DNA of 46,931 nt from a virus (taxonomy: Duplodnaviria > Heunggongvirae > Uroviricota > Caudoviricetes): IMG/VR virus record IMGVR_UViG_2522572023_000008. The stretch is one strand, 5' to 3'. A program made the position numbers. Position 1 is the stretch's first letter. Every line of letters begins with the position of its first letter. This document shows, one piece after another, positions 30,001 through 33,000 of this stretch.

Positions 30001-33000
30001 AAAGCTCCCTGATGCATTTGGTGGCCAGAACGACTGAGCCTGGCTTAAGTGACAACGTATCCTTTTCAAGAAAAATATTAATTGGGGAGCAAACCATGAT
30101 AACTGAACAGACAACAGCCATTATAATTTTACTTTCATTAGCAATTGGTTAGCTCAATTATAGCCCCAAAAGGTAAATTATCATCAACACATAAGCAAAG
30201 GACTGACAGGTGCCGCTAACACCCACCAGCCGCCCATTTACCACAAATAAAAAAGCCTTCAGGACTGAAGGCGTCTGTAACAACCGCACTGATAGTCTGC
30301 CAGACCCGCCATAACAAGCTGGGTCAGTATTAACTGGCAGCGTTCGCGTGAAAGGTAAGTATTCTGCGCAATCTCCCCGACTGTCGCCGGTTCGGTGACG
30401 CTTAATTCATTAAACACCACTCTGGCGGTTTCTGTCATATCCTGCTGTTTCAGCATGTCTTTTTCCCTTTTCCGGTTAACGTGACACACCAATAACTCTT
30501 GTCGAAAAAGCCAGCAAGTTGAAAGACCGGTATTAGCAACCACCAGCGCGTTTAACGCCCCGTGCCGTTTTTCAGTCATAAAAAAACCCGCAAAAAGCGG
30601 GCTCTTTCAAATGTCCATGTCTGCTATTCGCCTCGCGGTACAGCTTTGCGAAGCTTACCGGAATTGAAGCAGTTTTTACGTCAAAAAGCAATAACTTTTT
30701 TCTCTATACCAAAAGCCATAACCATTGGTTTGTACAAAATAAATTCTGCCACCTTTAGCCAATGCTCAATGCGTCTTTCACAGGTTCTTAAACTCCATTC
30801 CGGATGTGCATCATTCAGCAATTCAGCCATTTTGCGCTTAGTCATCCCCCGCCCCACATAACGCTGACTCAGAACATTGAGCAGCCCGGGATAACCTGCC
30901 AGTACTTCACCAATAACCCTGTCGATTATTAACGCCTCTGAATCGGTACAATGTGCCAGCCAGCTTTTTTGATTGCCGTTGATCATATCCCGCAAAAAAG
31001 CCTCAAGTTCAGGTTTGTCCAGACCCGCTTTTTTCATCCTCCGGAGCGCCTCGTTAATTGCCGTTTTTGTCAGCTTTTTAGAGGTCAGTAATTGGTTGAA
31101 CATATTTCCCGTCTTACCGTCGCCAATATACGACCAACGCCCCCACATACGCAGTTTCCCCTGGATCCAGACACTTTCCAGCGTTTTCAGGCGTAAATGC
31201 TCACCGCTTTTGCCTGTAATTTCCGGGTATATCATATTTATGCTCACTCACTTTCAATTTTGTAAATCTTCACGCCCAGCCGCCCACCAGAAACGAGCTG
31301 GCCGCGCACAATATTGATTTCATCAAACTGCTCGTCGTCTATGAGAAGTCCGGCATGCGTCAGCGCATCCAGTGGTGCTTTCAGGATATTGTCCAGGTCA
31401 CGACGGCGCTTATCCGGTGGCTCTGCAATAATCTTTATCGCCAGCCTTCCGGACAGGTTTAATTTCAGCCGCTGCTGGCGAACAATAAGCGCCACAGCCC
31501 GGCGATAACGCTCACCGGCTTTTGATACAAAATATGTGCTGCCACGACGTCGCCAGTAGGTGTTCACCGTCGGCGGGTAAGGCAAAACAAACTCTATACG
31601 CATCAGTAACCTCTTTTACCCGAGCACGCCGGTTGCAAAGGCGTGATCAAGAAAACGAAAAATTAAATCAACCTGGGAACCATGCTTTTCTTCGAACGCC
31701 AGCGGATCCGCATGAAGCTCGTTGTGATGCTCCCGACACAGCGGTAGCGTGAAAATATCGTGGGATTTTGTTCCCATTCCACCCTGACCATGACCAATCA
31801 GATGATGAGGATCGTCCGCTGGCTTACCACAACACGCACACGGCTGTGTCTTTACCCAGCGTGTGTATTTCTCATTTACCCAGCGGCGACGTTTAGGTCG
31901 TTTCATGAAGGATTCCGGAGACTCCGGATCAACGGCAATGCTGACCACCGTCTTTTCCTGTGGTGGGTTCTGTTGCTGGTGGGTGTGAGGCGGTAGCGCA
32001 ATATTTTTTGTGCGCTGCTTCAGTATGCTGGTGGCGGTCTGTTCTCCCGGTATGATGTCGCTTTCACGGTATACGGAGCGGATTTTTTCCGCCGGTAATC
32101 CCAGAGAGCGACGCGATACTGCCTCAGGTAATGCGTCCACCACCTGATTGCAGACTGCCCACCAGGATAATTCAGCCAGCGATAATTCCCGCTCCTGCGT
32201 GCCATTCATTACATGGCGTATGACGTCAATCATCCAGGCTGTCAGATTTTGTTGAGTAAGTTGCTCAAGTGATTCGGAGGTCTGGTCGCGCAGCTGGTTG
32301 TCGCAGTGCCAGCACAACACCATTGCGCCAGCACCGTAACTGTGAATAACGGTTTCGCTGTGATGATAATCGCCGTGTGGCCACTGGCAGGATTTCACGT
32401 GACGTAATAACCAGTCAGACAGTGCACCAGCGCCGCCAGCTGCACGAATCACCCGCTCATCGCTGAAAAATGGCAGCAGTGATTTATCTTCCGCCAGCGG
32501 CTGGCGAACAGCAGGAACCGCTCCAGATGGCAGCGCCCGCATGTTTTTCGGTTCCGGCTCCACCAGCACCCTGCCGCGATGAAAAACTGGCAATGATTCA
32601 CGACCGGGCTTAAGGACCACCAGCCCGAGTTCCGGAACCAGAACAGGTCGAAGTAATACCCGCACATTACCTCCAGACGCGCTGACGGTAGCAGGCATGT
32701 GTCCGTGGCAGATGTGCACGAACAGGAAGATATACAGAAACGGTCCAGGTCAGACGATCAGCGTTCAGACTCCGCTCCACACGGACACCGCGACGCAGAT
32801 ACGCCTCTTGAAGCATATCTGCCTCATCGATCGTACAGAACAGATAGTGAAACCAGCCATACTGAGGCGCACGAAAACGCCTCCCCTGCTTAATTTCCGG
32901 GTCGGCTTCAGAATTGTGGGATTTTATGTGTTGTGTCATCGGATTCTCCGGTGACAGCAGGTGTCAGTTGTTCAGGCTGACTGCGCGAATTGTAAGGCAA

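What the first reader, a model, noticed from the sequence alone, without database searches (positions are those of the whole stretch)
30579..31247. Q-position protein of unrecognised family followed by a strong terminator
The 188-aa protein occupies the slot of the late antiterminator (after rusA, before tRNAs and lysis genes). It lacks the zinc-finger signature of lambda Q that I know, and an intrinsic terminator lies about 80 nt downstream (candidate tR-prime). It may be a distinct Q family, or Q may be elsewhere.
Basis: inference. Interest (0 to 1): 0.4.

Follow-up and report, generated by a model that had tools for sequence, protein, structure and literature searches.

The report
Phage-21-type late-gene antiterminator cassette
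The gene is very probably this E. coli prophage's late-gene switch: a distant relative of the phage 21 Q antiterminator that databases file as DUF1133, followed by its own promoter, pause signal and terminator, so it is a known kind of device.

Summary
A minus-strand ORF at 30681..31247 (188 aa from GTG; 184 aa from ATG 31235 in RefSeq) lies between rusA and the tRNA, lysis and morphogenesis genes. The window is a lambdoid prophage of E. coli O145:H28 RM13516. A GC hairpin plus T7 terminator starts 79 nt after the stop codon.

In 53 distinct DUF1133 loci from Enterobacteriaceae, Morganellaceae and Erwiniaceae, 46 carry the same layout at the gene's end:
- a -35 TTG;
- a -10 hexamer 16-18 nt later;
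- a second -10-like hexamer, TAnGCT, at a fixed 34-35 nt from the TTG.

In 42 of 44 aligned loci a terminator follows about 68 nt after the TAnGCT. Q21-type phages share this layout.

No experiment on any DUF1133 protein was found, and no other Q gene lies in the prophage. Verdict: a divergent member of a known kind, with modest interest.

The parts
30681..31247 (-). Q-like late-gene antiterminator gene of the DUF1133 / Q21 superfamily. It gives 188 aa from GTG 31247 or 184 aa from ATG 31235.
   Evidence: ORF list. Pfam DUF1133 E 3.7e-105 and PF06530 33.1 bits against a cutoff of 26. PHROG 753. Q21 structures at E 2.1e-9 with the family profile. Fold match to Q21.
30686..30691 (-). Candidate -35 hexamer (TTGCTT) of the late promoter. 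It lies inside the last codons of the Q gene.
   Evidence: A TTG lies exactly 34 or 35 nt upstream of the TAnGCT element in 44 aligned loci. The combined pattern occurs in 46 of 53 loci, against 0.0055 expected per equal-sized background window.
30669..30685 (-). 17-nt promoter spacer (TTTGACGTAAAAACTGC). It contains the Q stop codon and a block conserved across the family (..AAAsTG before the -10). It is the best candidate for the Q-binding element.
   Evidence: Anchored alignment and consensus line. The assignment as a QBE is inference only.
30662..30668 (-). Candidate -10 hexamer: TTCAAT with a 17-nt spacer, or TCAATT with an 18-nt spacer. It is weak because it lacks A at -11. Relatives carry TAAATT, TATAGT or TAGTAT at the same place.
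   Evidence: The generic promoter scan did not report it.
30652..30657 (-). Second -10-like hexamer, TAAGCT. It is the candidate sigma-dependent pause element at about -1..+5 of the late transcript.
   Evidence: TAnGCT follows the stop codon in 47 of 53 loci, with only the third base varying (TATGCT 14, TAGGCT 13, TAAGCT 11, TACGCT 6). The same hexamer follows the -10 in Q21-type phages ST64T, CUS-3 and HK629.
30627..30651 (-). Conserved initial transcribed block (TCGCAAAGCTGTACCGCGAGGCGAA). The expected sigma-dependent pause position, 10-11 nt after the pause element, falls at 30642/30641. Homology among loci with near-identical Q genes ends at the 3' edge of this block.
   Evidence: The pause position is inferred from the lambda rule. 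An RNA hairpin reading was tested and rejected.
30580..30610 (-). Intrinsic terminator and candidate tR-prime. The A-tract is followed by stem GCCCGC/GCGGG (30602..30587, loop TTTTT) and T7 (30586..30580).
   Evidence: Sequence. Fold of the leader. Hairpin energy -13.0 kcal/mol, and the position is conserved at 61-107 nt (median 68) after the pause element in 42 of 44 loci.
30581..30656 (-). Predicted short terminated leader RNA of about 75 nt. It is the positional counterpart of lambda 6S RNA, StxS and IsrK.
   Evidence: The ends are inferred from the promoter and terminator positions. There is a weak full-length Rfam isrK match at 30581..30654 (19.8 bits, E 0.22, below the gathering score of 50).

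Best explanation
The ORF encodes the prophage's late-gene antiterminator. It is a divergent member (Pfam DUF1133) of the phage 21 Q superfamily. The roughly 110 nt after it form its cognate control site.

Proposed mechanism:
1. A sigma-70 promoter overlaps the end of the gene (-35 TTGCTT at 30691..30686, -10 at 30668..30662).
2. It starts a transcript near 30656.
3. Sigma re-binds the -10-like TAAGCT (30657..30652) and pauses RNA polymerase about 10-11 nt further on.
4. Without the protein, transcription ends at the hairpin plus T7 (30602..30580), giving a leader RNA of about 75 nt.
5. When early-right transcription has made the protein, it binds promoter-proximal DNA, most likely the conserved spacer. 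It then loads onto the paused polymerase and, as Q21 does, narrows the RNA exit channel so that terminator hairpins cannot form.
6. The modified polymerase reads through into the winged-helix ORF, the AraC-like gene, the tRNAs, the esterase, the lysis genes and the head/tail genes.

Shown here: family, fold, gene position, and the conserved promoter / second -10-like element / terminator layout. Inferred: promoter activity, the pause, the DNA site bound and the antitermination itself.
For: Sequence:
- DUF1133 E 3.7e-105; PF06530 33.1 bits against a cutoff of 26.
- PHROG 753 'Q-like' E 5.8e-81.
- Single sequence against Q21 in the PDB, E 5e-4; 46-sequence profile against Q21, E 2.1e-9.
- The same profile reaches Q21-length proteins at E 1e-7 in a library of 1.84 billion proteins.

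Fold:
- Foldseek ranks ten Q21 chains first (probability 1.00, target-normalised TM 0.60-0.68); the next hit has E > 1.

Position:
- The gene lies after rusA and before the tRNAs and lysis genes.
- Other phages carry unrelated Q alleles in exactly this slot.
- DUF1133 genes lie just upstream of the lysis genes in the complete-genome phage records examined from E. coli, Klebsiella and Providencia.
- No other Q family was found in the prophage.

Cis elements:
- TTG-N31/32-TAnGCT occurs at the gene end in 46 of 53 distinct loci, against 0.0055 expected per equal-sized window.
- A terminator lies 61-107 nt (median 68) downstream in 42 of 44 aligned loci.
- Morganellaceae relatives have near-consensus promoters, TTGACT-16-TATAGT.
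- Q21-type phages have TTGACA-18-CATAAT-7-TAAGCT/TATGCT followed by a terminator, and the promoter likewise overlaps the Q stop codon.
- In loci with Q genes 96-100% identical, homology persists to about +30 of the leader and then switches. This is as expected if the Q gene and its loading site are inherited as one module.
Against: - No DUF1133 protein has been tested. Literature searches for DUF1133 and PF06576 returned nothing, and NCBIfam has no model.
- The window's -10 (TTCAAT or TCAATT) lacks the A at -11 that sigma-70 normally needs, and the generic promoter scan did not call it.
- No pair of 8-bp direct repeats like the Q21 QBE was recognised.
- The protein lacks about 13 residues at a Q21 site that I infer to be the minor-groove loop of its HT[loop]H motif. 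It also has about 30 extra residues where Q21 forms its torus.
- The model is of low confidence over residues 1-17 and 43-95.
- The prophage may be defective, since its integrase is frameshifted.
Confidence: 0.8

Rival explanations
1. The protein is a sigma-region-4-like DNA-binding activator of the late promoter. It would recruit or stabilise RNA polymerase at a weak promoter and would not modify elongation. The hairpin would be an ordinary attenuator or operon-end terminator.
Against: Relatives in Morganellaceae have near-consensus promoters that should need no activator. A second -10-like element at a fixed distance, followed by a terminator within about 70 nt, is the signature of Q-type control. 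An activator model leaves this layout unexplained. The closest structure by a wide margin is Q21 itself.
Confidence: 0.08
2. The hairpin at 30602..30580 merely ends the early-right operon. The true late promoter lies elsewhere, for example at the ATGATA-16-TATAAT site at 30184..30157. The ORF would then be a remnant with no current regulatory role in a decaying prophage.
For: The only strong consensus promoter reported in the region is at 30184..30157. The integrase is a pseudogene. Further terminator-like hairpins lie at 30272..30255 and 30231..30201.
Against: The ORF is intact, and its 90%-identity cluster holds 975 sequences. The promoter / TAnGCT / terminator layout is conserved with the gene down to 42% protein identity and in complete-genome phage records. 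The site at 30184 sits directly before the AraC-like gene and is better explained as that gene's own promoter.
Confidence: 0.07
3. The main product of the site is the short leader RNA acting as a trans-acting Hfq-dependent small RNA, like IsrK or StxS. The neighbouring protein would be secondary to that function.
For: There is a weak full-length Rfam isrK match at exactly the predicted leader coordinates. Genuine isrK follows DUF1133 genes in L096 and L099. StxS, IsrK and lambda 6S RNA are all short late-promoter transcripts.
Against: The match scores 19.8 bits against a gathering score of 50 (E 0.22). The 3' half of the leader is swapped among near-identical Q genes. The leader hairpin shows no covariation. 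This reading also adds to the Q mechanism and does not replace it.
Confidence: 0.05

Closest known systems
Bacteriophage 21 Q protein (Q21; PDB 6P18, 6P19, 6P1A-C, 6JNX, 6JNY; Pfam PF06530, the Q21/Q933W family)
   Different: Identity is only about 18-25% in structure-based alignments to Q21 chains. DUF1133 has about 30 extra residues after helix 1, the segment that forms the RNA-exit-channel torus in Q21. It also lacks about 13 residues at a Q21 site that I infer to be the DNA minor-groove loop of the HT[loop]H motif (Q21 features). The TAnGCT lies 5 nt after the -10 against 7 nt in Q21-type phages. No 8-bp direct-repeat QBE was recognised.
Lambda Q (Pfam PF03589) with pR-prime, qut, 6S RNA and tR-prime
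   Same: Same genomic slot. Same logic of promoter, promoter-proximal -10-like pause element, short terminated RNA and read-through into late genes. The candidate binding site lies between -35 and -10, as in lambda (lambda details from general knowledge).
   Different: There is no detectable sequence relation: no PF03589 hit and no zinc finger. The leader is about 75 nt, against 194 nt for lambda 6S RNA (from memory).
Gifsy-1 antQ-isrK-orf45-anrP locus of Salmonella (Hershko-Shalev et al. 2016, PMC4825925)
   Same: A Q-like gene is followed at once by a promoter, a terminated RNA of about 77 nt and a small ORF. Genuine isrK (Rfam 75.6 and 67.1 bits) follows DUF1133 genes in a Shigella locus and a Salmonella locus.
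   Different: AntQ of strain SL1344 begins MNTQYLQ, judged from its cloning primer. In a locus carrying that primer sequence the ORF is a 229-aa protein that does not resemble DUF1133 proteins. The window's leader does not reach the isrK threshold.
StxS, the terminated pR-prime RNA of Stx phages (Sy et al. 2020, PMC7547250)
   Same: A short transcript produced by constitutive termination just downstream of Q in an EHEC lambdoid prophage.
   Different: StxS is linked to a 144-aa Q and is cut from a 258-nt leader. There is no stx gene here, and no evidence that this leader binds Hfq.
AlpA of Pseudomonas aeruginosa (PDB 7XYB)
   Different: The structural similarity is much weaker, and no sequence match was found.

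Membership tests
Pfam DUF1133 (PF06576) | Full-length match to the family model above its gathering score | tested here: met
   E 3.7e-105, 349.3 bits against a cutoff of 23.1. Residues 5-180 match model positions 1-176 of 176.
Q21/Q933W antiterminator family (Pfam PF06530) | Sequence match to the family model above its gathering score | tested here: met
   33.1 bits against a cutoff of 26. Residues 73-167 match model positions 19-113 of 118. The DUF1133 profile finds Q21 chains at E 2.1e-9.
Q21/Q933W antiterminator family (Pfam PF06530) | Q21 fold: a helical core resembling sigma region 4 | tested here: met
Q21/Q933W antiterminator family (Pfam PF06530) | Gene at the end of the early-right operon, immediately upstream of the late (lysis and morphogenesis) genes | tested here: met
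   for the window. for DUF1133 genes in E. coli, Klebsiella and Providencia phage genomes.
Q21/Q933W antiterminator family (Pfam PF06530) | Late promoter followed by a promoter-proximal -10-like sigma-dependent pause element | tested here: met
   The sequence signature is present: TTGCTT-17-TTCAAT-5-TAAGCT at 30691..30652. The pattern occurs in 46 of 53 loci, against 0.0055 expected per window. Promoter activity and pausing themselves were not testable, and the window's -10 is weak.
Q21/Q933W antiterminator family (Pfam PF06530) | Intrinsic terminator shortly downstream of the late promoter | tested here: met
   GCCCGC-TTTTT-GCGGG-T7 at 30602..30580. Conserved in position in 42 of 44 loci.
Q21/Q933W antiterminator family (Pfam PF06530) | Q-binding element made of two directly repeated 8-bp subsites (Yin et al.) | tested here: inconclusive
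   Only a conserved block in the -35/-10 spacer was seen. The Q21 QBE sequence appears only in figures that are not held, so no direct comparison was possible.
Q21/Q933W antiterminator family (Pfam PF06530) | HT[loop]H motif whose long loop contacts the DNA minor groove | tested here: inconclusive
   Alignments show a 13-residue gap in DUF1133 opposite Q21 residues of about 104-116. The model shows a 5-residue turn between helices 133-143 and 149-174. That these Q21 residues are the loop is my inference from the disordered residues listed, so the missing loop is probable but not proven.
Q21/Q933W antiterminator family (Pfam PF06530) | Antitermination activity: loading onto paused RNA polymerase and read-through of terminators | not testable with these tools
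   Needs in vitro transcription or reporter assays.
Lambda Q family (Pfam PF03589) | Match to the family model, and a zinc finger with four cysteines | tested here: not met
   No PF03589 hit at E <= 0.01. The protein has two cysteines and no CxxC.
IsrK small RNA (Rfam RF01394) | Covariance-model score at or above the gathering score of 50 bits | tested here: not met
   19.8 bits, E 0.22, at 30581..30654 on the minus strand. Genuine matches of 75.6 and 67.1 bits occur in L096 and L099.

The most novel reading that the evidence does not exclude
DUF1133 proteins may be a functionally distinct fourth branch of Q antiterminators. On this reading the enlarged torus-forming segment and a plain helix-turn-helix (lacking what I infer to be the Q21 minor-groove loop) mean they load on RNA polymerase and recognise DNA differently from Q21. 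Their loading site would extend to about +30 of the transcript, through the conserved GCrAAGCTrTA block. The terminated leader of about 75 nt would double as a trans-acting small RNA in the lysogen, as IsrK and StxS do.
Probability: 0.25. Interest if true: 0.45.

Novelty: new member of a known kind. Interest (0 to 1): 0.27.

Why it matters
RefSeq labels this gene 'DUF1133 family protein', and NCBIfam has no model for it. Its 90%-identity cluster alone holds 975 sequences, many from O145 and O157 EHEC prophages. Recognising it as the Q21-type late switch identifies the control point for late transcription of these prophages. That transcript includes morons such as the AraC-like regulator, the tRNAs and the NanS-p-like esterase.

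The comparative map of promoter, pause element, conserved +5..+30 block and terminator gives ready-made constructs for testing. The family would offer a natural variant of Q21 for asking which parts of the nozzle mechanism are essential. The kind of system itself is a textbook one.

Tried and rejected
1. Leader RNA hairpin (30654..30630). It was predicted for the window's sequence. RNAalifold found no consensus structure in 24 related leaders. The named helix is paired in 50.9% of cells, the same as in shuffles. Rejected: the conservation there is at the sequence level.

2. IsrK membership of the leader. It scores 19.8 bits against the 50 needed. Rejected.

3. The idea that Gifsy-1 AntQ, the experimentally studied Q-like protein, is a DUF1133 protein. 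The antQ cloning primer encodes MNTQYLQ. In a locus carrying that primer sequence the ORF is a 229-aa protein that does not resemble DUF1133 proteins. Rejected, so no experimental precedent exists for DUF1133.

4. The 106-aa reading of the next ORF from ATG 30579. PHROG 331 spans it. However, RefSeq aa. Homology with phage phiSTEC1575-Stx2k begins only at 30554, and the ATG is ATA in some relatives. Doubtful.

5. TAAGCT as the true -10. There is no -35 at 16-19 nt, and the fixed 34-35 nt distance to the TTG leaves room for an intervening -10. Rejected.

6. Dead ends:
- NCBIfam gave no hit.
- Paper searches for DUF1133 and PF06576 gave none.
- The Q21 QBE sequence is only in figures.
- The start-site dataset of Sy et al. 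is not held.
- Gifsy-1 was not found in the phage collection.
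Full report
**Source and observation.** The window matches a lambdoid prophage of Escherichia coli O145:H28 strain RM13516 at 100% identity. The prophage is inserted next to tRNA-Ser and mtfA, and its genes run on the minus strand.

The ORF in question is 30681..31247. It gives 188 aa from a GTG that overlaps the rusA stop codon. RefSeq starts it at ATG 31235, giving 184 aa (WP_000640035.1, 'DUF1133 family protein'), and the Pfam model also begins at residue 5.

Upstream lie a DUF968 gene and rusA. Downstream lie a 65-aa winged-helix ORF, an AraC-family gene, two tRNAs, a TerB gene, a SASA esterase, then holin, lysozyme and the head and tail genes.

The stop codon is TGA at 30683..30681. The stem of GCCCGC-TTTTT-GCGGG starts 79 nt later, at 30602, and is followed by seven T (30586..30580). 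The 86-nt leader folds at -29.7 kcal/mol, z = -3.69. The simple terminator scan missed the site, probably because it paired the flanking A-tract with the T-run.

**What the protein is.**
- It is a full-length member of Pfam DUF1133 (E 3.7e-105). It also passes the curated threshold of PF06530, Phage_antitermQ (33.1 bits against 26). Yin, Kaelber and Ebright give PF06530 as the Q21/Q933W family.
- PHROGs places it in phrog_753, 'anti-termination protein Q-like'. NCBIfam has no model for it.
- Against all PDB sequences, the single protein finds only the phage 21 Q protein with significance (E 5e-4). A profile of 46 diverse DUF1133 proteins finds Q21 at E 2.1e-9.
- The same profile, run against 1.84 billion cluster representatives, finds only 101 proteins. 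Three are full-length DUF1133 clusters and many are fragments. A few are Q21-length proteins, reached at E of about 1e-7 to 5e-4. The family is therefore small, largely confined to Enterobacterales, and demonstrably linked to Q21.
- An AlphaFold2 model has mean pLDDT 69.7, high from residue 98 onward and low over 1-17 and 43-95. Foldseek ranks ten Q21 chains first (probability 1.00, TM 0.60-0.68 on the target), and the next hit has E > 1.

**Differences from Q21.** Alignments show about 30 extra residues after the first helix. In Q21 this is the stretch whose counterpart rearranges to form the ring in the RNA exit channel, and it is also where the model is least confident. There is also a 13-residue gap opposite Q21 residues of about 104-116. 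[quoted passage not shown]

**Position.** Other phages carry unrelated Q alleles in exactly this slot between rusA and the tRNAs:
- 273 aa in phages Evi and vB_EcoS-640R1;
- 229 aa in the PPompW phages;
- 250 aa in phiSTEC1575-Stx2k.

DUF1133 genes occur in sequenced temperate phages of E. coli, Klebsiella and Providencia. In the complete-genome records examined the gene lies just upstream of the lysis genes; the partial 'Rac' record ends soon after the gene.

Nothing else in the prophage's early-right region matches a Q family (RefSeq table; Pfam scan of the unnamed ORFs).

**The control site.** I compared the DNA after the gene in 53 distinct DUF1133 loci. They came from phage records, IMG/VR contigs and GTDB species genomes, with protein identity to the window from 100% down to 38%.
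- Forty-seven loci have the hexamer TAnGCT just after the stop codon. Only the third base varies (TATGCT 14, TAGGCT 13, TAAGCT 11, TACGCT 6 among the 44 aligned).
- In those 44, a TTG lies exactly 34 nt (Enterobacteriaceae) or 35 nt (Morganellaceae) upstream of it.
- The combined pattern occurs in 46 of 53 loci at the gene end. The rest of the same loci give 0.0055 matches per window of equal size. In the whole 46.9-kb window it occurs three times, once here.
- Between the TTG and the TAnGCT lies a -10 hexamer 16-18 nt from the -35. It is near-consensus in Morganellaceae (TTGACT-16-TATAGT, TAGTAT or TAATAT), TAAATT in many Enterobacteriaceae, and the weaker TTCAAT/TCAATT in the window's own lineage.
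- A hairpin plus T-run follows 61-107 nt (median 68) after the TAnGCT in 42 of 44 loci, with different stem sequences.

In the window the elements are:

| Element | Sequence | Coordinates (minus strand) |
|---|---|---|
| -35 | TTGCTT | 30691..30686 |
| Spacer | 17 nt, contains the stop codon | 30685..30669 |
| -10 | TTCAAT | 30668..30663 |
| Second -10-like hexamer | TAAGCT | 30657..30652 |
| Terminator | hairpin plus T7 | 30602..30580 |

The predicted terminated RNA is about 75 nt.

Phages with Q21-type genes (ST64T, CUS-3, HK629) have the same layout: TTGACA-18-CATAAT-7-TAAGCT or TATGCT, then a terminator. Their promoter likewise overlaps the stop codon of Q.

A promoter followed within a few bases by a second -10-like element and then a terminator is the defining arrangement of Q-dependent late transcription units. 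I therefore read TAAGCT as the sigma-dependent pause element.

**Extent of the cognate module.** The stretch after the hexamer, TCGCAAAGCTGTACCGCGAGGCGAA (30651..30627), is conserved in sequence as far as Providencia and Xenorhabdus (GCGCGAAGCTGTACACGCAAGGC). Applying the lambda rule, in which the pause falls 10-11 nt after the element, the expected pause falls on the conserved GCT|G at 30642/30641. This is inference.

Among loci whose Q genes are 96-100% identical, the leader is identical up to about +30 and then switches to a different 3' half and terminator. Homology with phiSTEC1575-Stx2k, which carries another Q, starts only downstream of the terminator. So the unit inherited with the gene runs from the gene to about +30. 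That is what a Q loading site should look like.

The promoter spacer is unusually conserved (..AAAsTG before the -10) and is my best candidate for the DNA site bound. I could not compare it with the Q21 site, whose sequence is only in figures, and I saw no convincing pair of 8-bp direct repeats.

**Tests that failed.** The window's leader can form a 7-bp hairpin, but 24 related leaders give no consensus structure and no covariation.

Rfam gives a weak, full-length isrK match at exactly the predicted leader (30581..30654, 19.8 bits, E 0.22, threshold 50). Genuine isrK does follow DUF1133 genes in a Shigella locus and a Salmonella locus (75.6 and 67.1 bits). This shows that DUF1133 occupies the antQ position of the Gifsy-1 locus described by Hershko-Shalev et al..

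The studied AntQ itself is a different protein. Its cloning primer encodes MNTQYLQ, and in a locus carrying that primer sequence the ORF is a 229-aa protein that does not resemble DUF1133 proteins. I found no experiment on any DUF1133 protein.

**Mechanism and rivals.** The best-supported account is a Q21-like antiterminator acting at its own late promoter, as set out under best explanation. I put this at about 0.8.

The main rival is a sigma-region-4-like activator of a weak promoter. It fits the window's poor -10. It does not explain the fixed second -10-like element, the terminator, or the strong promoters of relatives.

A second rival holds that the hairpin just ends the early operon and that late transcription starts at the consensus promoter at 30184..30157. 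That promoter is better read as belonging to the AraC-like gene.

A trans-acting role for the leader RNA, by analogy with StxS, IsrK and lambda 6S RNA, is possible. It would be additional to the Q mechanism and has no direct support here.

**Verdict.** However, the family is a recognised relative of Q21 and not an unknown one. This is a divergent member of a known kind, mislabelled as a domain of unknown function in RefSeq, with an expected control cassette. Interest is modest.

Noticed in passing
window 29408..30121 (-), promoter-like site 30184..30157 (-): A 237-aa AraC-family regulator lies inside the late region. Its best matches are YdeO (106 bits) and GadX (88 bits), both far below their family cutoffs. 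It has its own near-consensus sigma-70 site, ATGATA-16-TATAAT, so it could be expressed in the lysogen independently of Q. From memory it resembles the prophage Psr regulators of EHEC; the papers listed were not read.
   Followed up: partly
window 30259..30579 (-): There is a small winged-helix (weakly TrmB-like) ORF. RefSeq aa (30259..30456). A 106-aa reading starts at the ATG that directly abuts the terminator's T-run, and PHROG 331 spans it. Homology to another phage begins only at 30554, and the ATG is not conserved in relatives.
   Followed up: partly
L023, L053, L054, L059 against the window: Loci whose Q genes are 96-100% identical share the leader only up to ...GCGAGGCGAA (about +30). 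They then carry a different leader 3' half and terminator, followed directly by a tRNA. This is a recombination breakpoint inside the leader.
   Followed up: partly
L096 2075..2276 and L099 2075..2268: In a Shigella flexneri locus and a Salmonella locus, a DUF1133 gene is followed by isrK, the c4-a1b1 target and a C4 antisense RNA. Most of these are above their Rfam thresholds. This is the P1-type antirepressor control module sitting at the late promoter. The same kind of promoter follows the unrelated AntQ in SL1344, so one leader type is paired with two Q families.
   Followed up: partly
window 29304..29379 (-): ARAGORN calls the tRNA with anticodon CAT Met, while RefSeq calls it Ile. It is followed by tRNA-Arg(TCT). 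From memory, this matches the ileZ/argN/argO arrangement of Stx phages.
   Followed up: no
window 26104..27954 (-): A 616-aa SASA esterase with DUF1737 and DUF6645 domains lies between the Q module and the holin. From memory, NanS-p sits at this place in Stx phages. This prophage carries no stx gene.
   Followed up: no
proteins P0310 (366 aa) and P0321 (379 aa): Two representatives match the DUF1133 profile only in their C-terminal ~130-165 residues (about 206-376). They therefore carry an unexplained N-terminal extension of about 200 residues.
   Followed up: no
window 31616..32719 (-): The DUF968 protein has an HNH-like cysteine/histidine motif. Its homologue is labelled 'Phage antitermination protein Q' in the phage Evi record. 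That looks like an annotation error which could mislead a search for Q.
   Followed up: no
window 30580..30610: The terminator has an A-tract upstream and a T-tract downstream, so it could also act on the plus strand. The consensus scan failed to list it on either strand.
   Followed up: no
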